IMG/VR virus record: IMGVR_UViG_3300036832_001295
Coordinates: 1 to 64,000 of that record
DNA: 64,000 nt
Strand: one strand, 5' to 3'
Origin: a virus
A model generated the notes under the pieces. That model was not told the DNA's origin. It made no database searches and saw only the letters and a list, made by a program, of their open reading frames with translations. Positions 4,632 through 58,294 of this stretch are shown in pieces. The position numbers and the translations under genes are program-made. Within the stretch, counting starts at the first letter, position 1. The number at the start of each line of letters is the position of its first letter.

Positions 4632-7600
4632 TCACTCCCCGGACAGGGCATCGCCGAGCAGAACCAGCGACAGATCCAGGTCGTCGTCACGTTGGGCCGC
4701 CTCCCGGCGCAGCGGTGCCTGCCCGGCCAGCGACGGCACGGTGCGTGCCTGACCGGCCGAACGGGGCACCGCACGCCGCGGCGGTGGCTGCCCCTGACGC
4801 TTGGCCGCGGCCTTCGCCACCTTGTTCAGGGTGCCGATCTCGGCGTTGATGGCCGCAATGTCGGTGCTGTTGGCGATCTTCTGGGCGAGCGCCAGGTCTT
4901 CCTCGCCGTCGGCGTAGCCCGCCGCGATCTGCAACCGGGCCAGCCGCAACGCGGCCATGAAGCGCAGCTGGGTGTCCTCGCCGCCATCCAACGAGCCGGT
5001 GCGCTGCGCCTGCCCGAACGGACCACCGAGCGGGAACGCGACCTGCGAGTTCATCGTGTTCCCCGCCCGCACGTCCACCTCGGTCTTGGTCTCGCGCAGC
5101 GGCCGGGGCCCCTGGGTGCCGTCGATCGGGCGGGTCACGTCGACCAGCTGCTTGACCGCCGGGGAGGGCAGGTCCTGGCCGGGGGTGTAGGCGGTGGTGA
5201 CCGCGTCGGCGGCCACATCCTGGTTGACGCCGGGCACCATGCCGGGGGCGTTGACGTCGGCGAAGGCCTCCGGCTCCAACGCGTCCGGGGTGGACTGGCT
5301 GGGCGGCTCCGGGCGGGGTTCGATGACCGGCTGAGCGGGGTTCTGCTCGTCGGCGTGCTTGCGGACCATGGCGGTGCGGACCAGCGTGTCGACGTCCGGG
5401 CCCAGGTGCATGGCGATGGCTTGCAAACCGGCGGTGAGCCGCTGGATCTGGCTGTCCTTGACGCTCAATCGGCGTTGCAGCTTCAGGTTCTCCCGCTGCT
5501 GGTGCTCGACCAGTTCCTGTAGCTCGGCCAGCGCCGCGAGTGCGTGCTGCATGTCGAACTCCTTCACAGAGGCTCGGTACTTAGCGGCGGCGGACTTCTT
5601 GGGGACAGGGCGCTTGGCCGGTGGGGTTTGTGCCTGCTCCTCCTCCTCGTCCTCTTCCTCCGGCTCTTCCTCGTCCTCCTCCTCGTCCTCGGGGACCTCC
5701 TCCGGGGTGACGGTGGTCCGGGACGGGATCGGGGAAGTGTCCAACGGGCCTTCCTCGGGGCTGCCTTCCGGTGGCTGTTCCTCCTCACCGGGTTCGGGTT
5801 CTTCCTCCTCGCCCTGGCCGGTGGCCTCCAACAGCCCCTTGTTGCAGTTGGGGCACACATCACCCTCGGCGGGGCCTTCCGGTTGCCCGCCCTCGGTGGT
5901 CGGTGCGCCGGACTCGTACTCCATCCCGCACACCGGGCAACCCAACGTGGACGGGCCGCCCTCCCCGGCGACCTGCGCCTGCACGTCCTCGGTGTCCCCG
6001 GCCTCGAAGTCGGCTCCCTTGCGGGACGGGTCGACGTCGAGCAGCGCGTCATCGACCGACCGTTTCAATTCGTCAAGGTGTCGGGCCTTGTCCACATCCG
6101 GGTCACCCAGCGCCTTCGGTGGCGCGAGGTAACCGCAGACCAGGCATTCCCGGCCGTCGAAGGCGGTGTCGTTGCCGCAGATCGCGCACCGCTCGTCACG
6201 CAGCGTGTCGACGTCTTGTGGGGCTTTTGTCTCGTTATAGGCCAACGCCTGCACCATCGCGGCGGAGGTCAGCGAGGAGGTGGGCAACGCCCCGACGATC
6301 GCGTCGGCGGTCTTGCGGCCATGGTGGTGGGAAAGCAGGTCGTGCAGCTTGGACTTGTTGGTCGCCGCCAGCCCCTGCTTGGACCGCAACCGGGTGGTCA
6401 CGGTGCGCCGGGTCTCGTTCTCATCGGCGGCCTGCCGCTGCTGCCCGGCGTACCACCAGCCTGCTTGCAGGTGGTCGGAACGGTACTTGCGACGGTCCTG
6501 CTTGCCGATCATGTCGTGCGCGGTGCGGGCCACCGACTGGGCGGCCTCGTAGCCGCCCTTGTTGCCCAGCTGCGAGGAGATGTGGTGGTACCAGGCGTAG
6601 TCGGGCATGTTGCCGGACCCTGCCGCGTAGGTCTGCCGGTCCATGACGTACCGCTTCTCTCCCTGGTCGCCGGAGTTGGCGATGTGCCGGTGGAAGTCGG
6701 AGAACTTGTTCGACCTGATCACCTCGGTGGGTTCGGCCCCGTCCAGCAGCCGCCGGATCTGGCCGCGGGCCGCGCCGTTGAGGTGGTAGCCGCCGCCCGC
6801 GTAGTCCTTGCCGTACGGGTCGTCGGAGACGGCGATGGCGTGCGCGGTCGCCTTCTGCTGGTGGTATTCGGTCCCGGCCGAGGAGATCGTGTTGATGGCG
6901 TTGAGGGTGAGCGGGTGGATGGGGTGGAATCCCTGCTCGGTGCGGGCCCGGTTGATGTGCTTGGTCTCGCTGGCCAGCGTGTCGTGTTCCTTGGCGTACC
7001 AGACCTTCGCGTGTGCCTTCTGCGCCCGGCTCAACCCGTTCCAGGAGGTCACGAACTTCTCCGCGCTCAACGGGTTGGCCGCCGACCAGCGTTTGGCCTG
7101 CCCCTGGATGTAGCCGTGCTGGGCGGCGTGCTGGACCTGCTCGGTCCGCGGCAGCGTCTCGGTGATCTTCTTGCTGGGGGCCTTGTAGAACATCGGCTGC
7201 CCGTCCGGGTGCTCGTTGTTCTCGCCGTGGCTGCGGTAGACGCTACGCACGTTGGCCAGGTGTGCGTCGAACTCTTCCTCGCTCATCTTGGTAGTCCGCC
7301 GTCGGGCCACCGGCAGGTCAGGCAGAGTGTTCATCGGTGGTGCTTCGGCCTTGCTGGCCCCCTGCCGCCGGTCCAGGTCCCGCATCCGGGCCCGGTCGGC
7401 GTAGCTCATCGGCTCGATCTCGGGGTGGTTGAAGGACATGTACTCCGCGCCGTTGTCCCGTACCCACTTGTGCAGGCCACGTTCGAGGTGGTGCTGGCCG
7501 AACCGGTCCCGGTTGGCAGCGGCCTCGCTGGAAGACATCGCGTCGGAGTAGCCGGGCAACGGCGGTGAGTCGACCGGCTGGTCGCCCTCGTAGATGTGGT

Positions 7601-9053
7601 ACCGGTTGCCGCCGGTCCATTCGGCCCGGTAGCCGGAGGGGTGTTCGGCGAACATCCGCCGTTCCATCCCGGCCCGGTGCCGCTGCTGCCACCGCCGGAT
7701 GCGGGGGTCGTGTTGTTCCAGGTGGGCGGCGTACCCGCCGGTCTCTTCCGGGTCGCCGTTGACCCAGTGGTGCAGATCCTGTTCGGCTTCGGCCGGTCCG
7801 TAACCGGGCATCCGATGCTGGTTGCGGGTCTCCCGATCGTAATGCTGCAAATCAATCAAATCGTGTGATTCGTCACCGGTCGCTTGGTGCCGAATCTCCA
7901 AATGCGGCCCGGAATGGTCAATGGCATACCAACCGCGCGGGCCTTCGATATGCGCGTACGGGTGATCGTCATCGTCAGGGTCGAACTTGATGTGGTGCGG
8001 CTGGTATCCCAATCCCTGAAGATCATTCATAACCCCGATATTGCGGGTGGACTTACGGCTCTCCGGGGTGCTGCCCGGATCCATGACCTGGTGGAAGCCC
8101 TCCCACAGCCGCTCACCCATCTCCCGGCCCTTGGCCTTGTCGGCGGCGATCTGCTCCGGGGTCTTGGGCTTGTCGTTGCCTTGGAACCAGGGGTCGTCGT
8201 CACCCTGCCGGTGGTAGGGGTTGATACCGTTTGAAGCGGTATATTGAAGCGGCAAGGTCGAGGCGTGGCTGGGCGTGGTGAGGCGCGGCCTGGCATGACG
8301 AGGCGTGGCGAGGCTGGCAAGATTCGTTGCAGGTCGTTCACTAAGAACGGCCTCCAACGAAGCCACCTTCTGCTGTAGATGTTCCAATCCAGGACCCAGT
8401 ACCGGCCGGTCCAGGAAGTAGGCGGTCGGATCTGCCGGAGGTTCAACAAGCAGTGAATTCTCGAAGAAGGACAGGCCACTGCAAATTTCGAATACCAACA
8501 CGTCTTCGAACCGGCCGTCCGGGTTGCGCCGCCTGATCCGTTTGCCCTTCTTGCCGGGAATATGTGCACAGTATTCGAGCGGGGTGGTGGCCTTGTTGCC
8601 GCAGAACGAGCAGGTGGATATCGCCACATCGGTGCCCATGGAAGTCCGGTCGATATCACCATTGAGAATGGCCTGGGCCAGCTTCGGGAACCGGATCGCG
8701 TCGATTTCCATCAAACATTCGCACCAGGTATCCGGGGAGCCGTCCGGGTTGCGGTCCCGGTGCAGGGCCGCGTCGATGACCACCCCGCGGGCGTGCCGGT
8801 GGTCCTCGTTGACGTGATTGACGAACACCGGACGGCCGATGAACGTCTGGTAGGACTTGGCGATCTCCTCGGCCGGGAAGCAGTCCCAGTTGTCGTTGGT
8901 GCGCGAGGAGATGGCCCGCGACCGGACGTAGAGGTAACCCTCCCGGGGCACGTAGTGGAACACCGCCCGGTGCGCGTCCTTGGCCAAGCCGGGGATCGCC
9001 CCGCTGGCCGCGGCCAGCACCTGCGCCGCACCGAACCGTCGGAACACCGGCAC
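4632..9053 (-). CDS. capsid maturation protease / scaffold fusion with inserted modules
   Basis: N-terminal YLYVRSRAISSRTNDNWD...FIGRPVFVNH...TSMGTDV..CSFC..FFENSLLVEPPADPTA protease-type region; CxxC zinc ribbons, acidic linker and coiled-coil C-terminus. Confidence 0.8.
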   Translation of the reverse strand: MPVFRRFGAAQVLAAASGAIPGLAKDAHRAVFHYVPREGYLYVRSRAISSRTNDNWDCFPAEEIAKSYQTFIGRPVFVNHVNEDHRHARGVVIDAALHRDRNPDGSPDTWCECLMEIDAIRFPKLAQAILNGDIDRTSMGTDVAISTCSFCGNKATTPLEYCAHIPGKKGKRIRRRNPDGRFEDVLVFEICSGLSFFENSLLVEPPADPTAYFLDRPVLGPGLEHLQQKVASLEAVLSERPATNLASLATPRHARPRLTTPSHASTLPLQYTASNGINPYHRQGDDDPWFQGNDKPKTPEQIAADKAKGREMGERLWEGFHQVMDPGSTPESRKSTRNIGVMNDLQGLGYQPHHIKFDPDDDDHPYAHIEGPRGWYAIDHSGPHLEIRHQATGDESHDLIDLQHYDRETRNQHRMPGYGPAEAEQDLHHWVNGDPEETGGYAAHLEQHDPRIRRWQQRHRAGMERRMFAEHPSGYRAEWTGGNRYHIYEGDQPVDSPPLPGYSDAMSSSEAAANRDRFGQHHLERGLHKWVRDNGAEYMSFNHPEIEPMSYADRARMRDLDRRQGASKAEAPPMNTLPDLPVARRRTTKMSEEEFDAHLANVRSVYRSHGENNEHPDGQPMFYKAPSKKITETLPRTEQVQHAAQHGYIQGQAKRWSAANPLSAEKFVTSWNGLSRAQKAHAKVWYAKEHDTLASETKHINRARTEQGFHPIHPLTLNAINTISSAGTEYHQQKATAHAIAVSDDPYGKDYAGGGYHLNGAARGQIRRLLDGAEPTEVIRSNKFSDFHRHIANSGDQGEKRYVMDRQTYAAGSGNMPDYAWYHHISSQLGNKGGYEAAQSVARTAHDMIGKQDRRKYRSDHLQAGWWYAGQQRQAADENETRRTVTTRLRSKQGLAATNKSKLHDLLSHHHGRKTADAIVGALPTSSLTSAAMVQALAYNETKAPQDVDTLRDERCAICGNDTAFDGRECLVCGYLAPPKALGDPDVDKARHLDELKRSVDDALLDVDPSRKGADFEAGDTEDVQAQVAGEGGPSTLGCPVCGMEYESGAPTTEGGQPEGPAEGDVCPNCNKGLLEATGQGEEEEPEPGEEEQPPEGSPEEGPLDTSPIPSRTTVTPEEVPEDEEEDEEEPEEEDEEEEQAQTPPAKRPVPKKSAAAKYRASVKEFDMQHALAALAELQELVEHQQRENLKLQRRLSVKDSQIQRLTAGLQAIAMHLGPDVDTLVRTAMVRKHADEQNPAQPVIEPRPEPPSQSTPDALEPEAFADVNAPGMVPGVNQDVAADAVTTAYTPGQDLPSPAVKQLVDVTRPIDGTQGPRPLRETKTEVDVRAGNTMNSQVAFPLGGPFGQAQRTGSLDGGEDTQLRFMAALRLARLQIAAGYADGEEDLALAQKIANSTDIAAINAEIGTLNKVAKAAAKRQGQPPPRRAVPRSAGQARTVPSLAGQAPLRREAAQRDDDLDLSLVLLGDALSGE

Positions 9054-30896: not shown

Positions 30897-31562
30897 TTAG
30901 CCCATCACGCAGACGTGCAGCATGTAGGTCTGGCTCTTCTCCTTGATCTGGATCGTCTGTGGGTGGAACGCCTCCGGGCAGAACGGACCGGCGGGCCCCT
31001 GCGGTCCTTGGACACCTTGCTTGCCCCGCGGGCCCGGTGCGCCACGTGGTCCGGCGGGACCCGCGGCCCCTTGTTTGCCGGTGGCCCCACGCTGGCCCTG
31101 TGCGCCCTGCTGTCCGGTCGCGCCGCGTGCCCCCTGCTGCCCGGTCGCGCCCTGCTGTCCTTGTGCGCCACGCGCTCCCGCGGCACCCTGGGCACCGGAC
31201 GCGCCGGGTGCGCCTTCGGGGCCTACCCTCCCAGGTTGGCCGGAGGTCCCCGGCGCTCCGTTGCGTCCCGCCGAGCCGGTTGCCCCGCTGGCCCCGGGAC
31301 TGCCTGCCGTCCCGGCTGGCCCGCTCGGCCCGGCACTGCCGGGGGTGCCGTTGGGTCCCATCAGCCCGGCACTGCCCGCCGGTCCCGGTGACCCGGCCGG
31401 ACCGGCAGGACCGCGGGGGCCGGGAATCCCGGCGTTGGCCTGCGCCTGCTTCTGGCCCAGCACCAGCGCCGCGACCGAGACGCTCAGCAGCAGCCCGGCG
31501 ATGATGAACGCCGCGCTAGCTTTGCCGAAGATCCGGTCCGCCCAACTCGTCACCTGGTTCAT
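30897..31562 (-). CDS. membrane-anchored collagen-like protein
   Basis: start ATG 31562; N-terminal TM helix, about 50 GXY triplets, C-terminal Cys pair. Confidence 0.8.
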   Translation of the reverse strand: MNQVTSWADRIFGKASAAFIIAGLLLSVSVAALVLGQKQAQANAGIPGPRGPAGPAGSPGPAGSAGLMGPNGTPGSAGPSGPAGTAGSPGASGATGSAGRNGAPGTSGQPGRVGPEGAPGASGAQGAAGARGAQGQQGATGQQGARGATGQQGAQGQRGATGKQGAAGPAGPRGAPGPRGKQGVQGPQGPAGPFCPEAFHPQTIQIKEKSQTYMLHVCVMG

Positions 31563-31824
31563 CGTCGTCCTCCTTCTCCGGTTCGGGTTCGGGCACCGCG
31601 ATGCCATGTTCGGCCAGCAGCATCATCAGTCGATAGTTGGCCAGTTCGGCCTGCACCCGACCGTGCCGCTCCTCGGCAAGCATCCCCTCGACCTCGCCTA
31701 GCTCGCCCTTGGCCGCCCGGCGTTCCTTGCTGCGCGCCGCCCGGATGGCCAGCAGCACTCCGGCGACGGCGGTGATGATCGCAGCCAGCCCGGTGACGAT
31801 GGCGACGATGTTGAAGGTGTCCAT
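31516..31824 (-). CDS. putative holin-like membrane protein
   Basis: start ATG 31824; one TM helix (FNIVAIVTGLAAIITAVAGVLLAI) plus coiled coil; directly downstream of the lysin. Confidence 0.6.
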   Translation of the reverse strand: MDTFNIVAIVTGLAAIITAVAGVLLAIRAARSKERRAAKGELGEVEGMLAEERHGRVQAELANYRLMMLLAEHGIAVPEPEPEKEDDDEPGDELGGPDLRQS

Positions 31825-31841: not shown

Positions 31842-32810
31842 TCACCAGTACAAGATCCGCCACCAGGCTCGGGTGACGGTGGCCGCCTTGCTGGCCGAGA
31901 CGAGCAGTCGCAGGTTGGTCTTGTCCCCGACCGTGCCGACCTGGCTGTAGACGAACTCGCTGCTGGCGGTGGGGGCGGCCAGCAGCTGCCCGCGCGGGAA
32001 GATGGACTTCTGGTTGTTGCCGCGGTCCAGGTTCTGCACCTGCACGTAGAGAACGCCGTCCGGGCCGAGCCCGGCGACGTAGAGCCAGGCGGTGAGGCTG
32101 ATGAACCGGGCGGTGTTGGGCAGGATCGCCGATGCCCCGCCGGAGGCGGTTGTCGGGTTCCAGCCGTCCCACTGCAGGTAGGTGTTGGTAGGCGCGGCGG
32201 GCACCTTGGTGGGTTTCTTCGCGGAGGCGGTCAGGTACAGCTGGGCGGGCATGTCGACCTCCGGCGGGGGAGTGGGGACGGGGCTGGTGGGCAGAATCGC
32301 GGTGCCCAGCGACAGGCAGTGCTTGTAGCGGGTGGTGCGGTCGGCCAGCCCGTTCAACCCGCCGTTGATGGCCCGGGTGGCCCCGACGATGTCGCCCTGG
32401 TCGGAGAGGGTGTTCAGCTGCGGGCGGGACACCGTCCAGTACCAGACCGGGCCGAGCCAGGCCCATTGGTCGGCAGCCAGGGTGGGCGGGTGGTTGAGGA
32501 ACAGATTCGGGTCGTTGAGCAGGTTCTTGCGGGCGCACCACTGCCCGAAGGCGGCGTAGTTGTAGTCCCAGGTGATCTGGATGAAGGTGCGCCCGATGTA
32601 GGGCGGGTAGGTTGCCCCGGGCGGTGGCTGGATTTCCTGCTTGTAGCGCAGCGAGCCGGATTCATGCCCGATCTGGGCCAGGAACATGGCGGCCCGGCGC
32701 ACGTTGGTGATCTCGCCGATGACCATCGCGGCGTTGGCCCCGTTGACCAGCTGGCTGGCGCGGGGCAAGTCCAGCCCGGGCATCGCCTTGACGAGGGTGG
32801 CGGCGTCCAC
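31842..32810 (-). CDS. endolysin, glycoside hydrolase family 19
   Basis: AMFLAQIGHESG, YIGRTFIQITWDYNY and TRAINGGLNGLADR GH19 motifs. Confidence 0.9.
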   Translation of the reverse strand: MDAATLVKAMPGLDLPRASQLVNGANAAMVIGEITNVRRAAMFLAQIGHESGSLRYKQEIQPPPGATYPPYIGRTFIQITWDYNYAAFGQWCARKNLLNDPNLFLNHPPTLAADQWAWLGPVWYWTVSRPQLNTLSDQGDIVGATRAINGGLNGLADRTTRYKHCLSLGTAILPTSPVPTPPPEVDMPAQLYLTASAKKPTKVPAAPTNTYLQWDGWNPTTASGGASAILPNTARFISLTAWLYVAGLGPDGVLYVQVQNLDRGNNQKSIFPRGQLLAAPTASSEFVYSQVGTVGDKTNLRLLVSASKAATVTRAWWRILYW

Positions 32811-32895
32811 ATTCCTTCGTATGGTGCGGTGCGGGTCGGACAGGGGGGCCTTGAACCGGGACGTTTGAAACCGTCAAGAAATAGAGGCGATGGTC

Positions 32896-32996
32896 TTGCA
32901 CACCTGGCGCTGGGATGTGCTACAGTTCCTGTGTCATCGCTTCCGCGGTGCAAACCACACAGGGTTCATAACCCACTACTCAAAGCCTATAGGAGG
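32896..32996 (+). promoter_or_regulatory. putative SigA-type promoter, leader hairpin and RBS of the RAMP-like operon
   Basis: TTGCAC (32896), 19 nt, TG-n-TACAGT (32921); CCTGTGT...ACACAGG stem; AGGAGG at 32991. Confidence 0.55.
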
Positions 32997-33002
32997 CTTA
33001 CT

Positions 33003-33650
33003 ATGACCGCAGCACCTACTGCTGCTCTGCACATCCCACGCATCAACGTGGAGACCCTGCTGGTGCCGATCCTCGGGACCAGCCCGCTGCTCGTGCACCA
33101 GTGGTCCCAGAAGGCCAAGCTGCAGATGCTCAACGCGCAGCAGGGCATCAAGACCATCAAGGAACCCCGCGACCCGCAGTCGGAGTACGAGGCCAGCCTG
33201 TACCGGGCCGGGGACGACGGCTACGGCATCCCGTCGGTCGCCTTCAAGGCGGCCACCGTGTCCGCGGCCCGCGTCTACGGCAAGGCGGTCCGGATGACCG
33301 AACTGCGCCAGTTCCTGTTCTTCCGCGGCAAGATGTACAAGGGCAACAACGGCAAGTTCAGCTGCAACCAACAGCTGTTCCTGCTCGACGGCACCCCGCA
33401 GATGCGCGAAGACATGGTCACCGTCGGCATCTCCGGCACCGACCTGCGCTACCGGGGCGAGTTCACCGAGTGGTCGACCACGCTGACCGTCGAGTACATC
33501 AAGTCCTCGATCACCAAGGAGTCGGTGCTCGGCATCATCGAGGCGGCCGGAACCACCGTCGGGGTCGGCGAGTGGCGGCCGGAGAAGGACGGCGAGTTCG
33601 GCACCTTCAAGCTCGACCCGTCCCGTGAGGTGCAGGTCATCTCGGCATGA
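33003..33650 (+). CDS. RAMP/Cas7-like protein, putative effector of the GGY-NN repeat system
   Basis: 215 aa from ATG 33003 with strong RBS; RAMP-like layout ILGTSPLLVH, YGIPSVAFKAA and C-terminal G-rich loop GVGEWRPEKDGEFGTF. Confidence 0.8.
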   Translation: MTAAPTAALHIPRINVETLLVPILGTSPLLVHQWSQKAKLQMLNAQQGIKTIKEPRDPQSEYEASLYRAGDDGYGIPSVAFKAATVSAARVYGKAVRMTELRQFLFFRGKMYKGNNGKFSCNQQLFLLDGTPQMREDMVTVGISGTDLRYRGEFTEWSTTLTVEYIKSSITKESVLGIIEAAGTTVGVGEWRPEKDGEFGTFKLDPSREVQVISA

Positions 33651-34015
33651 GCGGCGACCCGCAGCAGTGGTTGCGGACGGAGTTGAAGGGGGTGCGCGTC
33701 CGGCAGGGCGCGCTCACCCCGGCCACGTTGCTGGCTGACGTGACCCAGACCGGCCCGACGCATCCGCTCTATGACCGGTTCCTGTGGTCGGTGGACACGC
33801 CGCAGGACAAGGCCCAACTGGCCCGCATGCTGATCCACGAGGCCCATCCGGAGCAGGCCTGCCGCCAGGCCACCCTGGACGAGGTACAGGCCGGGTTCGC
33901 CCGGCTGGGGTTTTCCACCGGCAGCTTGCAGACCAACTACCACCGTGAGGACCACATTCTGTTCACGGTGGACGACGCACAGCGGCTGCTGGCCGCATTA
34001 GGGGGACAGTCATGA
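33647..34015 (+). CDS. accessory protein, divergent paralog of 34012..34467
   Basis: ATGA-coupled; GALTPATLLA...HPLYDRFLW. Confidence 0.75.
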   Translation: MSGDPQQWLRTELKGVRVRQGALTPATLLADVTQTGPTHPLYDRFLWSVDTPQDKAQLARMLIHEAHPEQACRQATLDEVQAGFARLGFSTGSLQTNYHREDHILFTVDDAQRLLAALGGQS

Positions 34016-34467
34016 GCTTCTCCGCCTACGAGGCGCAGCGGGAACTGATCACGCAGCTGGAAGAGGTTCGCGAACACCGCGGCGAACTGACCCCGCAGGC
34101 GGTGTTGGCCGAGGTCGAGGAGACCGGCAAGCGGCACCCGCTCTACGACCGGTTCGAGTGGAACAACCGGGTCGCCGGGCACGGCTACCGCCTCGACCAG
34201 GCGCACCGGCTGATCATGTCCGTGAAGGTGATCTTCCGGGGACCGACCGACGAGGAACGCAAGATCCGCAAGTACGTCGCGGTGCCGCAGCCGATGGCCC
34301 ACCAACCCAACTACGAGCCGATCGAGGACGTCGCGATGGACGACCTGAAACGCAAGCTGGTGCTGCAGGACGCGGAACGGCGCTGGAAGGCGTTGCGGAC
34401 CCAGTTCGGCCACCTGCAGGAGTTCATCGACCTGGTGCTGGGCGACCTGAACGGCAAGGCCAGCTGA
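34012..34467 (+). CDS. accessory protein of the RAMP-like operon
   Basis: ATGA-coupled; GELTPQAVLA...HPLYDRFEWNN...YRLDQAHRLI. Confidence 0.8.
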   Translation: MSFSAYEAQRELITQLEEVREHRGELTPQAVLAEVEETGKRHPLYDRFEWNNRVAGHGYRLDQAHRLIMSVKVIFRGPTDEERKIRKYVAVPQPMAHQPNYEPIEDVAMDDLKRKLVLQDAERRWKALRTQFGHLQEFIDLVLGDLNGKAS

Positions 34468-34470
34468 GCT

Positions 34471-34554
34471 AAACACGCTCGGCCAGGTGCCGATCGTGTT
34501 TGTCGAGATCCGGGATGCCCAACCGCGGGGGAGGGAGCATCCCGGATCTTCGGC
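34471..34554 (+). other. two stem-loops forming the array leader
   Basis: AAACACGcTCGGC-caggt-GCCGAtCGTGTTT (34471-34501) and GATCCGGGATGC...GCATCCCGGATC (within 34502-34554). Confidence 0.7.
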
Positions 34555-34561
34555 GTCTGCG

Positions 34562-34957
34562 GGCAGGGCTTGGTTCGGCACGGTTCGGCACGGCAGGGCT
34601 GGGCAGGCACGGCAAGGCTGGGCCCGTCGAGGTTCGGCGTGGCAAGGCCCGGCAGGCCAGGCAGGGTGTGGCACGGCACGTCGTGGCGGGGTTCGGCAGG
34701 GCTGGGCAGGCAAGGCGAGGCACGGCATGGCACGGCCTGGCGCGGCCGGGCAGGCAAGGCGTGGATGGCCCGGCGGGACGTGGCAAGGCGGGGCAGGCAC
34801 GGCTTGGTTGGGCACGGCAGGGCTAGGTTCGGCATGGCGGGGCAGGCAGGGCTTGGTGCGGCCAGGCGCGGTTGGGGTTGGCGCGGTGCGGCGGGGCAGG
34901 CGTGGCACGGCTTGTCATGGCTGGGCAGGGCTGGTCTTGGCGCGGCGTGGCAGGCTG
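34562..34957 (+). repeat. GGY-NN pentamer array 1 (putative guide ncRNA, about 8 units)
   Basis: period-5 GGC/GGT plus a variable dinucleotide, interrupted every 8-10 pentamers by GGCA. Confidence 0.9.
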
Positions 34958-34999
34958 TGCCGAACAGGTCAAACGGTGATCTGGTTAGGGGGAATCGGG

Positions 35000-35446
35000 A
35001 TGAAGATTCATACGCTGTTGGCGTTGGCCGCGGCCGGGGTGTGCACCGCCGGAATGGTGGTCTTCGCGGCACCGGCCTCGGCGGCGCAGTCGGAGTTGAC
35101 CCTCAACTGCACCGGCCTCGGCATGGTGACGGTGGCGACCAACAACAACAACTCATCCGAGCACGGTGGTTGGGGCGCGGCGCAGACCGTGAACATTCCC
35201 GGGCACGGTATCGCGACCTCGTTCTCCGGCACGATTACCGACCTGGTGACCGGCACCAGCGTGAGCTTCACCCAGGTCAAGGGCAACGGCAACGCCAACC
35301 AGAACACCACCGGGCAACCCACCATGTGCTCACAGACGATCACCGGCACGGTGGTCGACTTCACCGGGGGGTTCATCCCGCCGGGCATGTCGGGCTCTGA
35401 CCCGGCCACCTTCATGCTCACGGTGGGCGTGATTTACAAGGCCTGA
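35000..35446 (+). CDS. secreted protein embedded between the two arrays
   Basis: 148 aa; Sec signal MKIHTLLALAAAG...AAPASA-A; two Cys in the mature part; GC3-rich codons. Confidence 0.8.
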   Translation: MKIHTLLALAAAGVCTAGMVVFAAPASAAQSELTLNCTGLGMVTVATNNNNSSEHGGWGAAQTVNIPGHGIATSFSGTITDLVTGTSVSFTQVKGNGNANQNTTGQPTMCSQTITGTVVDFTGGFIPPGMSGSDPATFMLTVGVIYKA

Positions 35447-35449
35447 CTC

Positions 35450-38300
35450 GGCAGGCAGGGCTTGGCGGGGCATGGTTCGGCGCGGCATGGCACGGTGTGG
35501 CAGCCAGGGCACGGCGCGGCACGGCACGGCCTGGCTCGGCGCGGCAGGCGCGGCGCGGCGCGGCGGGGTCGGGCCCGGCCTGGTGCGGCGAGACATGGCG
35601 CGGCGAGGCAGGCATGGTGTGGCTCGGCCTGGCTCGGCAAGGCAGGGCAGGCACGGCATGGTTGGGCTCGGCGCGGTTGGGCGTCGCAGGGCTTGGCAGG
35701 CAGGGCGAGGTGTGGCGGGTCCAGGCATGGCGCGGCAGGCATGGCCCGGCGCGGCTCGGTACGGCAAGGTGGGGCGTGGCAGGCGGGGTTGGGTTCGGTT
35801 TGGCATGGCGCGGTTGGGCACGGCACGGCTCGGCAGGCGTGGCTTGGCGTGTCGAGGCGGGGCTGGGTTCGCTGGGCCAGGCGGGGCAGGGCAGGCGTGG
35901 CTGGGCGGGTTCCGGCAAGGCAAGGCATGGCCAGGCAGGCACGGCCCGGTTCGGTATGGCACGTCGTGGCCAGACTTGGCTTGGCAGGCGTGGCTTGGTG
36001 TGGCACGGCCGGGTCAGGCACGGTTGGGCGCGGCAGGCTCGGCGAGGCGTGTCATGGCAAGGCTCGGCTAGGTAGGGCACGGCAGCCGAGGCCTGGTGAG
36101 GCAGGGCAACGCGAGGCATGGCTAGGCCCGGCAGTCGGGGCGTGGCATGACCCGGTGTGGCAGGTCACGGCAAGGCGTGGCGCGGCAGGCACGGCTAGGT
36201 CGGGCGCGGATCGGCGTGGCATGGCGTGGCAGCTAAGGCGCGGCGGGGCACGGCACGGCTGGCTAGGCAAGGCTCGGCCCGGTGCGGCATGGCAGGTCAG
36301 GGCAGGCGTGGCAGGGTGCGGCAGGGTCAGGCGCGGCAGGGCTAGGCGGGGCTTGGCAGGCAAACGTGGTTTAGCTGGGCCCGGCGTGCCGGGGCACGGT
36401 GGGGCGTGGCAGGCAGAGCAAGGCTCGGCTTGGTTCGGCGTGGCATGGCAGGCAGGGCTAGGCAAGGTATGACAAGGCTGGGTGCGGCATGGCGTGGCTG
36501 GCATTCGTGGTTTGGCTGGGCGGGCCGCGGCGGGGCAGGCAAGGCATGGCTTGGCATCGCATGGTGTGGCTCGGCTAGGCGCGGCAGGGCAGGCAGGCGA
36601 GGCCGGGCAGGCAGGGCTGGATTCGGCCGGGCATGGCTTGGCGCGGTTTGGCAGGCAAGGCAGGCATGGTGAGGCACGGCAGGGCACGGCGCGGCTAGGC
36701 GCGGCAGGCGAGGCAGGGCCCGGCTAGTCCAGGTGCGGCGGGTCGCGGCCGGGTTCGGCAGGGCAGGCTCGGTTGGGCTGGGCGGGGCGTGGTTTGGCAA
36801 GGCAGGGTTGGGCACGGCAGGCAGGCAGGGCGTGGTTGGGCTCGGGCGGCTGGGCACGGCAGGGCAGGCACGGCGGGTCCGGGCGAGGCTCGGCAAGGTC
36901 CGGCCTGGCGGGGTAGGGCCTGGCAGGCGAGGCGGGGTGTGGCGGGGCCTGGCGGGTCAAGGCACGTCATGGCGCGGCAGGCATGGCGAGGCAGGGCTTG
37001 GTCCGGCAGGGCACGTCCCGGCTTGGCTTGGCAGGCTCGGCCAGGCGCGGTTGGGCGAGGCATGGCAAGGCAGGGCTCGGCCAGGCAGGCATGGCCCGGC
37101 GAGACCCGGCTCGGCTCGGTGCGGCATGGCGCGGCATGGCAGGCAGGGCGCGGCGCGGCCAGGCGAGGCCGGGCTTGGCTCGGTCCGGCCTGGCGAGGCG
37201 AGGCAGGCATGGCCCGGTATGGCACGGTGCGGCACGTCCCGGCGTGGTATGGCAGCCGAGGCCCGGCTTAGCGTGGCAGGTCTTGGCGAGGCCTGGTGTG
37301 GCACGGCAAGGCAGGGCGTGGCAGGCATCGCGTGGTGTGGCACGGCCCGGTGGGGCACGGCTTGGCAGGCATCGCACGGCGCGGCATGGCAGGTCGAGGC
37401 AAAGCCTGGCGGGCACGGCAGGCATGGCCCGGTCCGGTTCGGCACCGCACGGCGGGGCATGGCAGGCATGGTTCGGCTTGGCGTGGTGTGGTGGGGCACG
37501 GCAGGGCACGGCAGGCAGGGCTCGGCGTGGTTCGGCACGGCACGGTGTGGCGTGGCTTGGCGGGCAGGGCTCGGCCGGGTTGGGTACGGCGTGGTCAGGC
37601 GAGGCGCGGCGCGGTGTGGCAGGCAGGGCTCGGTACGGCGGGGCATGGCAGGGTGTGGCTAGGCCCGGCGGGCATGGCATGGCGCGGCAAGTCCAGGCGA
37701 GGCGCGGCGAGGCGTGGCGAGGCGAGGCGAGGCAGGCAAGGCAAGGTCGGGCAGGGCACGGTATGGCCCGGTGTGGTTGGCATGGCGCGGCATGGCAGGC
37801 AGGGCGCGGCAGGCTGGGCTCGGCACGGCTAGGCGCGGCTCGGCAAGGCGTGGTGGGGCAGCCGGGGCTGGGCGAGTTGGGCATGGCCGGGCGCGGCGTG
37901 GCAGTCCAGGCAGGGCAGGACGAGGCAGGGCTAGGCGCGGCTTGGCAGGGCAGGCTTGGCCCGGCGGGGCATGGTTGGGCTAGTCAAGGTCGGGCATGGC
38001 AGGCAGGGCAGGGCTTGGCCCGGCAACGCAGGGCTTGGCCCGGCGCGGCAGGCACGGCAGGGTTAGGCGGGGCGGGGTCCGGCTAGGCCTGGCAGGCAAG
38101 GCGGGGCAGGTCCCGGCTTGGTTGGGCACGGCTCGGCGCGGCAGGCGTGGCAGAGTTCGGCGAGGCTAGGCGTGGCAAGGCCCGGCTAGGCAGCCACGGC
38201 GGGGCCTGGCCAGGCATGGCAAGGTGAGGTGCGGCGCGGCATGGCAGGCGTGGCTTGGCGTGGCACCGTGTGGCCACGCGTGGCACGGCACGGCAGGCTC
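35450..38300 (+). repeat. GGY-NN pentamer array 2 (putative guide ncRNA, roughly 55-60 units by hand estimate)
   Basis: about 2.85 kb of period-5 GGY-NN with GGCA (occasionally GGCT/GGCG) punctuation; strong G skew; no coherent ORF. Confidence 0.92.
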
Positions 38301-38317
38301 GGAAAACCGGGCCTGCC
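38292..38317 (+). terminator. stem-loop closing the array
   Basis: GGCAGGCTCGG-AAAA-CCGGGCCTGCC, 11 bp stem with one G-U pair, at a convergent junction; no U-tract. Confidence 0.65.
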
Positions 38318-38320
38318 CGC

Positions 38321-38494
38321 TCACCCCTCGCTGTCGCTGCACCCCACGTCGCGGTACTCCACCTCGGTCGTCTGGCTCGGCGGGTCCACCTGCGGGTAGT
38401 CGTAGTCCTCGACCAGGTCGAAGCGTTCCTCCTCGTAGGAGGTCTCCGGCGGCGGCGGCTCCTCGGTCGGCTCCGGGATCGGCACCTCGCTCAT
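38321..38494 (-). CDS. small acidic protein
   Basis: 57 aa from ATG 38494 with GGGAGAG RBS. Confidence 0.55.
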   Translation of the reverse strand: MSEVPIPEPTEEPPPPETSYEEERFDLVEDYDYPQVDPPSQTTEVEYRDVGCSDSEG

Positions 38495-38504
38495 CGTCTC
38501 TCCC

Positions 38505-39299
38505 TCAGTAGGTGAACAGCCGGGTCCAGTCGCCCCGCCACACCTGGCCGACATGCTTGCTGCGCGGGGTGTGCTTCTTCTGCCACTTGGTCACCGCGGC
38601 GGTAGTAGTTGCTCCGTAGACGCCCGGGGTCCACTTGCCGCCGAAGCCGAGGGCCGCCAGCCGGTTCTGGATGGCCTGGATGTCCGGGCGTTCGGCGACG
38701 TAGTAGCCGCCGTGGCTGGTGTTCGGCCCGGCGATCGGCCCGAAGTAGTGGCCCTTCTTCATGTAGGAGGGCCAGCGGCGGCGCAACTTCTTCTCCTTGC
38801 CCGGTTTGGCCGGTGCCTTGGGGGCCGAACCCTGCCCGCAGAAGACCTGCGCGACCCGCTGCCAGGCGGGTCCGTCGTTGACGTAGGCGCGGTGCCCGGA
38901 CAGATGCACGTGCCAAAGATGTGATTTGTCCGAACTGACCCATTTCAGGGTCTGCACGTCCAGCCCGGTGACGTCCTTGCCGTTGACGGTGCCGAAGAAC
39001 TCGCGCAGCGTCTGCATCCGCACGTCGTGCGCCTTGGCGGCGTTGATCAGCCGTTGGGTGACCTTGCGCATCTGCGCCGCGGGCAGCGTGACGTCCAGGG
39101 CGGACGCGGCCTGCCCGTCGCCCTTGCGGTCGATCGGTTGGGTCACCGAATAGTCGTCCTTGGGCAGCACGTCCCGGCAACGGTGGTAGCCGTAGGCGTG
39201 GCTGCGGTCCCCGACGATGCCGGACAGCTGCGCCTGCGGGATGAAATGGTGGATGGTGTTGTAGGCCGCCTGGATCGCCTGCGGGGCATATTCGCTCAT
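38505..39299 (-). CDS. second lysin: putative Zn peptidase (M15-like) plus peptidoglycan-binding domain
   Basis: GYH...ALDV...HLWHVHLS metal ligands; C-terminal DIQAIQNRL...GVYGATTTAAVTKWQ...GQVW PG-binding pattern. Confidence 0.75.
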   Translation of the reverse strand: MSEYAPQAIQAAYNTIHHFIPQAQLSGIVGDRSHAYGYHRCRDVLPKDDYSVTQPIDRKGDGQAASALDVTLPAAQMRKVTQRLINAAKAHDVRMQTLREFFGTVNGKDVTGLDVQTLKWVSSDKSHLWHVHLSGHRAYVNDGPAWQRVAQVFCGQGSAPKAPAKPGKEKKLRRRWPSYMKKGHYFGPIAGPNTSHGGYYVAERPDIQAIQNRLAALGFGGKWTPGVYGATTTAAVTKWQKKHTPRSKHVGQVWRGDWTRLFTY

Positions 39300-57370: not shown

Positions 57371-58294
57371 TCAGGCCGCGTCTGCGCTCACCTCCTCCTC
57401 GGTGTAGGCGGCGATGCCCAGCACGTGCTCTGCGGCCTTCTGGGCCTGCGCCGCGGCCTGCACGATGAGCTTGTGGTCGGCCTTCAGGACCCGCAGCCAG
57501 CTGGCCAGGTAGGCCGCTGAGTTGTCCAGGGTGGTCTCGATGCCCGCCTGGGCGCACAGGAACGCGGCGGTCATCTCCGCGCAGAGTTCCTCCTTCGAGT
57601 ACTTCTCGTCGCCGAAGTGACTAAAGCTGGTGATGTTGGGCCGGTCCAGCCGGGACGGGTGGCCGGTGGAGTGCCCCATCTCGTGGAACAACGTCGAGTA
57701 GAACTCCTCGGCGTGCGCGTACTGGCCGATCTCCGGGACGGTGATCTCATCGGTGGTAGGCACGTAGAAGGCCTGGTCGGAGGCGGTCCGGGTGATCCGC
57801 GGCGCGTCCGGATAGCCCGCCACGATCGCCTCCGCGGCCTCGATCGGGTCATGCTGGGTACGGCTGGTCGCCGGGTTCACCGGCTCCTTGCCCTCGGCCC
57901 AGTCGGCCTGCTCGGCGTTGAAGACGGAGTAGACCCGCAGCATGAAGATGATCTTGGGCTTCTTCTCGCCGGTCACCTCGTCCGTCTCGGTGATCTTGAT
58001 CCGCTTCCAGAGCGTCACCATGGTCGACTTCTCGCCCTTGCGGACCTGACCGCCCATCTCGGAGATGCGCTTGTAGGTGCCCCACCACGGCGAGGTGTAG
58101 CCGCCCTCTAGCGCAGAGAGGCTCAGCAGCAGCGGGTTGATGCCGCGGTAGGCCTTCTTCGTGGACAGGCTCAGCGGCAGCGTGCCGGACGCGCCCCACG
58201 GCTTGCGCCAGGGCACGGTACCCGCTTCCAGGGCCTTGATGATGGTGGCGGTGACGGCCTCGTAGGCGTCGAACTTGGTCTTGGTGCTGGTCAT
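57371..58294 (-). CDS. ardC: ArdC-like antirestriction protein (ssDNA-binding plus zincin-like metallopeptidase)
   Basis: PWRKPW, YRGIN, GGQVRKGEK, VFNAEQ, TLFHEMGHSTGHPSRLDR, YSKEELCAE, SAAYLASW. Confidence 0.88.
   Translation of the reverse strand: MTSTKTKFDAYEAVTATIIKALEAGTVPWRKPWGASGTLPLSLSTKKAYRGINPLLLSLSALEGGYTSPWWGTYKRISEMGGQVRKGEKSTMVTLWKRIKITETDEVTGEKKPKIIFMLRVYSVFNAEQADWAEGKEPVNPATSRTQHDPIEAAEAIVAGYPDAPRITRTASDQAFYVPTTDEITVPEIGQYAHAEEFYSTLFHEMGHSTGHPSRLDRPNITSFSHFGDEKYSKEELCAEMTAAFLCAQAGIETTLDNSAAYLASWLRVLKADHKLIVQAAAQAQKAAEHVLGIAAYTEEEVSADAA

What the first reader, a model, noticed from the sequence alone, without database searches (positions are those of the whole stretch)
37088..37137. 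Next unit decodes to the GHKL ATPase G1 box IAIADDGSGM
Seen: NN = AT CC GA CC TC TC GC AT GC AT, antisense I-A-I-A-D-D-G-S-G-M/I. Known: hxhxDxGxG(M/I) is the G1 box of GHKL ATPases (MORC/Hsp90-like, common in restriction and defence islands) and histidine kinases. A second conserved motif directly next to the TIR unit suggests guides are selected for conserved sites.
Basis: partly seen in the sequence, partly recalled or inferred. Interest (0 to 1): 0.8.

Follow-up and report, generated by a model that had tools for sequence, protein, structure and literature searches.

The report
Phage VIPR guide matching GHKL ATPase motif
These 50 bases are one guide RNA unit in a very large phage VIPR array, and its variable letters spell, two bases per codon, the ATP-binding G1 motif of GHKL ATPase genes, though the gene it really silences is still unknown.

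Summary
It is one block of a 75-block array beside a Vipr (RAMP) gene: a VIPR "staggered" vrRNA array, a kind in print since 2026. This scan had already noted the same array on the same DNA.

Read by the published 1-nt-skip rule, the guide gives [IM]A[IM]A[DE][DE]GSG[IM]. The exact DNA pattern has 7 hits in 185,579 species genomes and 9 in metagenome contigs. Of these 16:
- 12 lie in frame on the G1 box of HATPase_c or HATPase_c_3 genes: 9 sensor kinases and 3 defence-linked GHKL ATPases.
- 2 lie in an Arthrobacter PGI-family gene.
- 2 lie in no evident gene.

The natural target is not identified:
- There are no exact hits in viral contigs or in the phage itself.
- No second guide matches nearby.
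- Near-matches in 401 Actinomycetota genomes are sensor kinases (21 of 28 checked), with no defence-type GHKL among them.
- One randomly chosen comparator guide gave chance-level hits, so "guides are selected for conserved sites" is not shown for this array.

Verdict: a new member of a known kind. A counter-defence role is possible but unproven.

The parts
33003..33650 (+). vipr gene (215 aa RAMP/Cas7-like protein)
   Evidence: phmmer hit to PDB 36pp_D 'SUSP1 Vipr protein', E=7e-7. phrog_4652, E=5.8e-40. AlphaFold2 model with pLDDT 91.4 matches Csm3/Cmr4/type VII Cas7 chains, Foldseek prob 1.00.
33647..34015 (+). small gene coupled to vipr (122 aa), candidate accessory (vap-like) gene
   Evidence: Start overlaps the vipr stop. 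No Pfam or PHROG hit. The accessory role is inferred from position only.
34012..34467 (+). second small coupled gene (151 aa), candidate accessory gene
   Evidence: phrog_15946, E=2.9e-22, function unknown. GC3 0.93.
34566..34958 (+). vrRNA array, part A (about 9 blocks)
   Evidence: Tokenised into 70 pentamers, 9 tetramers and 1 hexamer.
35448..38301 (+). vrRNA array, part B (about 66 blocks)
   Evidence: 515 pentamers, 68 tetramers and 1 hexamer. Over both parts: 585 pentamers in blocks, 435 GGC and 88 GGT; 63 of 75 blocks end in GGCA.
37088..37141 (+). the guide in question: 10 pentamers (37088-37137) plus the closing GGCA tetramer
   Evidence: Exact 1-nt-skip pattern hits.
   Evidence: Its decoding was not tested here.
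37142..37205 (+). following guide, 12 pentamers plus GGCA

Best explanation
The stretch is one guide of a phage VIPR system. Shown: a Vipr (RAMP) gene lies 0.9 kb upstream of a 3.3 kb array on the same strand. The array is made of GGY/NN pentamers cut into blocks by GGCA tetramers, the 'staggered array' layout described for VIPR. This block has ten NN units. Inferred from the published mechanism (SUSP1 and P. fulva systems, not this clade): the array is transcribed and cut into roughly 54-nt vrRNAs. One Vipr protomer binds each pentamer and hides the GGY bases. The ten NN pairs base-pair with a DNA strand while every third target base is skipped, and the bound filament blocks transcription. 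Shown in silico: with that rule the guide pairs with the coding strand of AT.GC.AT.GC.GA.GA.GG.TC.GG.AT, i.e. codon positions 1-2 of [IM]A[IM]A[DE][DE]GSG[IM]. In nature that sequence is mostly the G1 (DxGxG) ATP-binding box of GHKL-superfamily ATPases. My best reading is that the cognate target is the G1-box stretch of one particular GHKL-family gene of the unknown actinobacterial host or of an element in it. That gene could be a sensor kinase or a defence-linked HATPase_c_3 ATPase. The guide fits one gene's variable residues, not a family consensus. The confidence of 0.5 is for 'the target is a GHKL-family gene'. That the stretch is a VIPR guide I put at about 0.9.
For: VIPR identity: Vipr/RAMP; 523 of 585 scaffolds are GGY; 63 of 75 blocks end in GGCA; 301 of 367 guides in 80 related Vipr loci also end in GGCA; the same layout beside the Vipr homologue of Gordonia phage Ecliptus. 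Published rule and staggered arrays.

Target class: 7 exact hits in genome contigs against about 1 expected for 20 fixed bases in 596 Gb (my arithmetic, uniform composition), and 9 in metagenome contigs. In 14 of the 16 hits the NN fall on codon positions 1-2 of a long ORF in one orientation. Twelve of 16 lie on the G1 box of HATPase_c or HATPase_c_3 domains.

All three HATPase_c_3 hits carry IAIADDGSGM, and two were shown to sit in defence settings. L003 matches PADLOC MzaB at E=2.7e-98, next to MzaC, a short pAgo and its nuclease partner. L016 lies between two C5 DNA methylase genes. L009 matches PADLOC type II restriction models.

In 401 Actinomycetota genomes at up to 2 mismatches there were 38 matches against 4 for the backwards control. 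Shuffle test: 4 of 20000. NN composition (GC 0.497 in a phage with GC3 of about 0.88) fits reading of codon positions 1-2: 54 of 57 guides fit that phase best.
Against: - No natural target is known. There were 0 exact hits in 2.9 million viral contigs and none in the phage's own 85.7 kb at up to 3 mismatches.
- None of the 54 guides of 8 or more units, other than this one, matched at 80% NN or better in the 201 kb around the hits.
- Two of 16 exact hits are in an Arthrobacter PGI-family gene, and a third genome has it with 1 mismatch, so the peptide is not unique to GHKL.
- The 8-unit core also occurs in terminase-like phage genes ('..IADEGSGI').
- 0 of 120 homologues of the L016 ATPase carry the exact decapeptide.
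- In Actinomycetota no exact GHKL site was found in the 401 genomes sampled.
- The codon-1-2 model fits the NN composition no better than a uniform model.
- The 1-nt-skip rule, vrRNA processing and expression are untested for this clade. No RNA run holds the sequence.
- One scaffold of the guide is GAC, not GGY.
- The motif was recognised post hoc among about 114 decodings.
Confidence: 0.5

Rival explanations
1. Counter-defence guide. The target is specifically a defence-type GHKL ATPase (MORC/MzaB-like or restriction-linked HATPase_c_3) of the host, and the phage silences it during infection.
For: All three HATPase_c_3 exact hits carry IAIADDGSGM. L003 sits in a defence island, L016 lies between two C5 methylase genes, and L009 itself matches restriction-enzyme models. 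I-x-[IV]-x-D-D-G-x-G-M is the G1 consensus of the L016 family, so the guide's six constant positions fit it. HATPase_c_3 genes make up 3 of the 12 GHKL hits although, by my recollection, they are far rarer than kinases in genomes.
Against: 9 of the 12 GHKL hits are sensor kinases. 0 of 28 near-match ORFs in Actinomycetota are HATPase_c_3. None of the three defence hits is shown to be actinobacterial. The main texts of the VIPR preprints report satellites, prophages, other VIPRs and viruses as targets, not host defence genes. No other guide matches near these loci.
Confidence: 0.2
2. The target is a host sensor histidine kinase, and the phage silences a two-component system.
For: 9 of 16 exact hits are kinases, one in an Actinobacteria MAG (L002). 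21 of 28 near-matches in Actinomycetota are HATPase_c proteins, 17 of them with HisKA. One recurrent kinase carries IAVADEGPGI, which matches 8 of 10 NN, the preprint's reporting threshold.
Against: No exact kinase site was found in the 401 Actinomycetota genomes sampled. The benefit to the phage is unclear. A G1 guide would hit only the one kinase that shares the variable residues.
Confidence: 0.2
3. The real target is an unrelated gene of a competing phage, prophage or satellite (for example a terminase large subunit, a ParB-like gene or another gene with ..IA[DE][DE]GSG.), and the likeness to the G1 box is coincidence.
For: Published natural targets are mostly mobile elements: 18 of 20 SUSP1-clade and 48 of 66 P. 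fulva-clade targets. The 8-NN core occurs in terminase-like genes of viral contigs (L056, L057, L063, L064, L071, L081). 9/10 NN matches occur in ParB-like genes (L104, L105). The motif was picked post hoc.
Against: No 10/10 hit in viral contigs. The 9/10 and 8/10 viral hits are no more numerous than expected for 16 fixed bases, and most are in low-GC phages. 12 of the 14 in-gene exact hits are GHKL.
Confidence: 0.2
4. The block is not a working guide. It would be a drifted or spare unit of an over-expanded array, or a decoy.
For: One scaffold is GAC. The array is 3.4 times larger than any of 80 related loci. No target was found for it or for the other guides in the DNA available. The guide occurs in no other viral contig.
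Against: 9 of 10 scaffolds are GGY and the closing tetramer is intact. The preprint notes frequent internal degeneracy in working vrRNAs. Random drift would rarely give a perfect 10-codon match to a conserved motif.
Confidence: 0.1

Closest known systems
VIPR systems, type II of Escherichia phage SUSP1 and a Pseudomonas fulva prophage (bioRxiv 10.64898/2026.04.26.720920 and 10.64898/2026.04.26.720927)
   Same: A Vipr RAMP protein next to RNAs made of GGY/NN pentamers. NN read with one target base skipped, which falls on the wobble base in coding targets. Phage-encoded. Guides of 9-16 units (this one has 10).
   Different: Sequence similarity to SUSP1 Vipr is weak (E=7e-7, C-terminal 58 residues only). 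There is no 3' tail or pseudoknot between guides; blocks abut through a GGCA tetramer. 75 blocks against 4 vrRNAs in SUSP1. The host is probably actinobacterial. The exact matches of this guide are cellular GHKL genes, not a satellite or prophage.
Staggered vrRNA arrays (legend of fig. S18 of 10.64898/2026.04.26.720920; only the legend was seen)
   Same: Guides follow one another directly, with the end of one marking the start of the next through a 1-nt overlap. GGCA followed by G fits two pentamers sharing one G.
   Different: I could not see the figure or the supplement, so I cannot say which VIPR type or clade it shows, or whether arrays of this size are reported.
SUSP1 vrRNA4 against the F5 satellite recombinase (bioRxiv 10.64898/2026.10.15.759431, section 6)
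   Same: A guide in codon register reads near-invariant codon positions and skips the wobble base, so synonymous change gives no escape.
   Different: There the target is known, shared by 119 satellites and tested by qPCR and plating. Here the target is only inferred, and the guide also reads four variable residues, so it fits one gene rather than a family.
Vipr loci of Gordonia phages Ecliptus, ODay, Pipp and UmaThurman, and Mycobacterium phages Donkeykong, Brocalys and others (GenBank records)
   Same: Vipr homologues at 41-58% identity. In Ecliptus a GGCNN/GGCA array lies directly downstream.
   Different: The Ecliptus array is about 230 nt (4-5 guides) against 3.3 kb here. The genes are annotated only as hypothetical proteins. 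None of 367 guides from 80 related viral loci shares more than 4 of 10 NN units with this guide.
Cas7-family backbone proteins of type III and type VII CRISPR-Cas complexes (Csm3, Cmr4)
   Same: Same fold (Foldseek prob 1.00, TM about 0.5). One protomer per fixed number of guide nucleotides.
   Different: No CRISPR repeats, no other cas genes, 5-nt rather than 6-nt periodicity, and a gapped reading of DNA.

Membership tests
VIPR system | A Vipr protein (minimal RAMP with RRM core, G-loop and thumb) encoded beside the RNA | tested here: met
   PDB 36pp_D 'SUSP1 Vipr protein', E=7e-7. Model pLDDT 91.4. Best folds are Cas7-type RAMPs, prob 1.00. The G-loop GVGEWRP aligns to SUSP1 GVGDWRP and is invariant in 48 homologues.
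VIPR system | Residues that read the GGY bases (SUSP1 H17 and D177, as given in 10.64898/2026.04.26.720927) | tested here: inconclusive
   E190 aligns with D177, a conservative change, in the strong alignment stretch. H32 aligns with H17 only in a weak stretch (score -1.4), though H32 is invariant in the family. No structural superposition on a Vipr structure was possible, because the fold library lacks one.
VIPR system | RNA made of tandem GGY/NN pentamers, at least 4 units, conserved GGY and hypervariable NN | tested here: met
   523 of 585 pentamers are GGC or GGT. All 16 NN dinucleotides occur.
VIPR system | Staggered array layout (adjacent vrRNAs overlapping by 1 nt) | tested here: met
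   63 of 75 blocks end in a GGCA tetramer followed by G. 301 of 367 guides in relatives do the same. Only the legend of the published figure was seen.
VIPR system | Array is transcribed and processed into vrRNAs that bind Vipr | not testable with these tools
   No RNA run holds the stretch. No Rfam family or ribozyme in 32700-38600. No sigma-70-like promoter found.
VIPR system | Targets obey the 1-nt-skip rule | tested here: inconclusive
   Under that rule 14 of 16 exact hits put NN on codon positions 1-2 of a real ORF. Other skip lengths were not searched, and the true target is unknown.
VIPR system | Accessory vap gene | tested here: inconclusive
   Two small coupled genes follow vipr. One matches phrog_15946 of unknown function. 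The vap1-6 definitions are in supplements that I could not see.
   The decoded string fits, and it is the only one of 57 guides in either orientation to do so.
GHKL ATPase G1 box (as target of the guide) | Exact DNA pattern occurs in frame inside Pfam HATPase_c or HATPase_c_3 domains | tested here: met
   12 of 16 exact hits.
GHKL ATPase G1 box (as target of the guide) | A cognate site in the phage's host or in a competing element | tested here: not met
   Host unknown. 0 exact hits in viral contigs. In 401 Actinomycetota genomes the only exact site is in a PGI-family gene.

The most novel reading that the evidence does not exclude
A lytic actinophage uses VIPR as RNA-guided counter-defence. 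The host could then not escape by synonymous change. The very large array would be a library against the defence repertoire of its hosts.
Probability: 0.2. Interest if true: 0.8.

Novelty: new member of a known kind. Interest (0 to 1): 0.5.

Why it matters
VIPR was described only in 2026, and its known natural targets are satellites, prophages, other VIPR systems and viruses. This locus adds three things:
- an actinophage member with by far the largest array among the 81 loci I compared;
- a guide whose only perfect matches in very large sequence collections are cellular GHKL ATPase genes, some in defence islands;
- a concrete 29-bp site that can be tested.

If the guide does silence a host immune ATPase or a sensor kinase, VIPR would also be a phage tool against the host, not only against rival elements. 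If the real target turns out to be a rival element, the case is a warning that short decoded peptides can mimic famous motifs.

Tried and rejected
- Protein-coding repeat: all six frames carry overlapping ORFs of 80-370 aa across the array, as expected for 75% GC DNA, and block lengths are 5n+4. Rejected.
- Decayed microsatellite: GGY is kept while NN varies. Rejected.
- Known RNA family or ribozyme-interspersed array: no Rfam match.
- Close phage relative by DNA: no megablast match for 20000-44000.
- Self-targeting: none at 80% NN or better; at 70% or better, 4 observed against 4.5 in shuffles.
- Convergence of other guides near the exact hits: none in 201 kb.
- Our 54 guides against 1.06 Mb around 80 related Vipr loci, arrays masked: 0 with 0 or 1 NN missing and 37 with 2 missing, against 0.9 and 39.7 in shuffles.
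- 333 relatives' guides against this phage: one hit with 1 NN missing against 0.15 in shuffles, and 4 against 7.85 with 2 missing. Not pursued.
- The same guide in other phages: 0 viral contigs; best 4 of 10 NN units among 367 guides.
- Viral targets with up to 2 NN units mismatched at one end, or one at each end: sub-patterns gave 32, 15 and 44 loci. The best were 9/10 NN in ParB-like and unassigned ORFs, none in a GHKL gene. One viral HATPase_c_3-like hit (L074) matches only 8 of 10 NN units (3 base mismatches), in a 36% GC contig.
- Codon-phase likelihood: favours positions 1-2 over other phases but is no better than a uniform model, so it is weak evidence.
- NCBIfam naming of the kinases: none reached a curated cut-off.
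- Expression: no RNA holder listed.
- Not done: searches with 0-, 2- or 3-nt skips, and composition-matched permuted patterns on the big collections.
- Only one comparator guide was run.
- Host not identified. Portal relatives are Mycobacterium, Gordonia and Rhodococcus phages at 38% identity or less.
- Supplements of all preprints were closed. They may hold the VIPR type of this clade, the staggered-array examples and the target lists.
Full report
**What is at the coordinates.** Window 37088-37137 is ten 5-nt units: GGCAT GGCCC GGCGA GACCC GGCTC GGCTC GGTGC GGCAT GGCGC GGCAT. A GGCA tetramer follows at 37138-37141. The stretch is not an isolated oddity. Distances between successive GGC triplets across 34555-34965 and 35445-38305 are almost all 5, 10 or 4. 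A tokeniser splits the region into 585 pentamers grouped in 75 blocks. Of those pentamers, 435 start with GGC and 88 with GGT. Sixty-three of the 75 blocks are closed by GGCA. Fifty-seven blocks have 7 or more pentamers, most often 8-10. A Logan contig from the probable source run reproduces 36500-37154 without a difference. That checks the assembly, but the reads are probably the same ones.

**What the region is.** The window is the first 64 kb of an 85.7 kb IMG/VR virus contig. It carries a major head protein, portal and endolysins. The portal is 38% identical to those of large Mycobacterium phages.

Directly upstream of the array and on the same strand lies a 215-aa gene (33003-33650). Several results identify it as a Vipr gene:
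- The protein matches PDB chain 36pp_D, 'SUSP1 Vipr protein', at E=7e-7.
- It matches phrog_4652 at 5.8e-40.
- Its family has 1968 members at E of 0.001 or better in the large protein collection.
- An AlphaFold2 model (pLDDT 91.4) has the Cas7-type RAMP fold (Csm3, Cmr4, type VII Cas7; Foldseek prob 1.00).

bioRxiv 10.64898/2026.04.26.720920 (Results, two Methods sections and legends read) describes Vipr proteins with RNAs of alternating GGY/NN. The NN pairs read DNA with one base skipped, and that base falls on the wobble position in coding targets. The legend of its fig. S18 describes 'staggered' arrays in which vrRNAs overlap by 1 nt. GGCA followed by G is what two pentamers sharing one G look like. 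The same layout stands next to Vipr homologues in Gordonia phage Ecliptus. It also occurs in 80 related viral contigs, where 301 of 367 guides end in GGCA.

The stretch is therefore one guide of a VIPR staggered array, a known kind. This array is unusually large: 585 pentamers against at most 173 in the 80 relatives (flanks of 8 kb).

**The decoding.** Reverse-complemented and read as codon positions 1-2, the NN string gives AT. GC. AT. GC. GA. GA. GG. TC. GG. AT. That is [IM]A[IM]A[DE][DE]GSG[IM], and IAIADDGSGM is one of its readings. The pattern h.h.[DE].G.Gh is met by this guide alone among 57 guides in both orientations, and by 4 of 20000 shuffles of the NN units. Because the motif was chosen after reading about 114 decoded strings, that figure cannot be taken at face value.

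The exact pattern gave these counts:
- 0 hits in viral contigs;
- 0 in the phage itself, even with 3 mismatches;
- 7 hits in one genome each of 185,579 species;
- 9 hits in metagenome contigs.

For 20 fixed bases in 596 Gb about one hit is expected (my arithmetic, uniform composition). In 14 of the 16 hits the NN fall on codon positions 1-2 of a long ORF, always in the antisense-to-guide orientation.

Pfam places 12 of the 16 on the G1 box of a GHKL domain:
- 9 are sensor kinases: L001, L002, L004, L010-L015. L013 repeats the gene of L004.
- 3 are HATPase_c_3 proteins: L003, L009, L016.

The three HATPase_c_3 proteins all read IAIADDGSGM. L003 matches PADLOC MzaB (2.7e-98) and lies next to MzaC, a short pAgo and its nuclease partner. 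L016 (66% GC) lies between two C5 DNA methylase genes. L009 matches restriction-enzyme models.

Two hits (L005, L006, Arthrobacter) are in a PGI-family gene, and two (L007, L008) are in no evident gene.

**What this does not show.**
- No cognate site was found where VIPR targets are expected. Sub-patterns that allow two end units to differ gave 32, 15 and 44 viral loci. The best were 9/10 matches in ParB-like or unassigned ORFs. Several 8/10 matches fell in terminase-like genes ('..IADEGSGI'). None fell in a GHKL gene of a GC-rich phage.
- The peptide is not a family consensus. In 120 homologues of the L016 protein the G1 box is I-x-[VI]-x-D-D-G-x-G-M, and none has the exact string. The guide would fit one gene, not the family.
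- In 401 Actinomycetota genomes there were 38 matches at up to 2 mismatches, against 4 for the backwards control (one match is from an unpublished genome). The only exact one is the PGI gene. Of the 28 near-match ORFs I classified, out of 30 loci fetched, 21 are HATPase_c proteins (17 with HisKA, 4 CheA-like). None is HATPase_c_3. The rest are unrelated enzymes.
- No other guide of the array matches within the 201 kb around the hits, so none of those loci looks like an element on which the array converges.
- The guide is unique to this phage.

**Are guides selected for conserved sites?** The idea is already published for SUSP1 vrRNA4, which reads invariant codon positions of a satellite recombinase (10.64898/2026.10.15.759431, section 6). 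For this array I could make only a small test. The GHKL guide gave 22 and 2 in the same genomes (my count from the table). So this guide is exceptional in sitting on a widely conserved motif, and the generalisation is not supported by that one comparator.

The NN composition (GC 0.497, against GC3 of about 0.88 in the phage's genes) fits reading of codon positions 1-2: 54 of 57 guides fit that phase best, 39 of them antisense. A uniform model fits equally well.

**How it most likely works.** By analogy with the solved SUSP1 and P. fulva complexes (10.64898/2026.04.26.720927, abstract and passages read), one Vipr protomer would hold each pentamer and hide the GGY bases. The ten NN pairs would pair with the coding strand of the target, skipping each third base, and the filament would block transcription. 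These steps are inferred, and nothing about expression or processing could be tested.

If the closing GGCA(G) also read its 'AG', an eleventh codon CT. (Leu) would be needed before the motif. None of the 16 hits has Leu there.

**Weighing the readings.**
- That the stretch is a VIPR guide: about 0.9.
- That its cognate target is a GHKL-family gene: about 0.5. This splits roughly evenly between a sensor kinase and a defence-type ATPase.
- That the target is an unrelated gene of a rival element: about 0.2.
- That the block is inactive: about 0.1.

The main texts of the four preprints that mention VIPR do not report host defence genes as targets (listing; supplements not seen). A counter-defence role would therefore be new, but it rests here on three database hits from other phyla or from unassigned metagenome contigs.

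**Verdict.** This is a new member of a known kind, in an exceptionally large array that this scan had already reported on the same DNA. Interest is moderate, because it gives a concrete, testable site and a possible new use of VIPR, with no natural target yet.

Noticed in passing
window 8259-8322 (+): A lone run of about 11 GGYNN pentamers closed by GGCT GGCA, 25 kb from the main array. It lies inside a long minus-strand ORF (4632-9053) in a locally GC-poorer stretch. It could be a solo vrRNA of the kind described in 10.64898/2026.10.15.759431, or just a coding repeat.
   Followed up: partly
window 35000-35446 (+): A 148-aa gene with a signal-peptide-like N-terminus splits the array into two parts. 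It has no significant Pfam hit (only weak PKD_5, E=0.075, below cut-off) and no PHROG hit.
   Followed up: partly
window 34566-38301: The array has 585 pentamers in 75 blocks, 3.4 times the largest total (173) among 80 related Vipr loci from viral contigs.
   Followed up: yes
window 34566-38301: NN units starting with C are scarce (CA 17, CT 13, CG 13, CC 32; 75 of 585). CG is the joint rarest, although Arg CGN codons are common in GC-rich genomes. This may be a structural limit on guides or a bias of the targets.
   Followed up: no
window 30897-31607 (-): An ORF with a long collagen-like Gly-X-Y run (GPRGPAGPAGSPGPAG...), just before the endolysin gene.
   Followed up: no
window 57371-58294 (-): A gene matching phrog_7245, 'anti-restriction protein', E=6.8e-82. 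The phage thus also carries a conventional protein counter-defence candidate.
   Followed up: no
L056, L057, L063, L064, L071, L081 (viral contigs): The peptide ..IADEGSGI recurs in terminase-like phage genes after a G.H motif. Short G1-like decodings can therefore also point to phage packaging genes.
   Followed up: partly
window 37141-37154 and elsewhere in 36500-37700: The Logan assembly of the source run breaks and makes chimeric joins inside the array. Repeat arrays of this kind are therefore easily mis-assembled or truncated in metagenomes.
   Followed up: no
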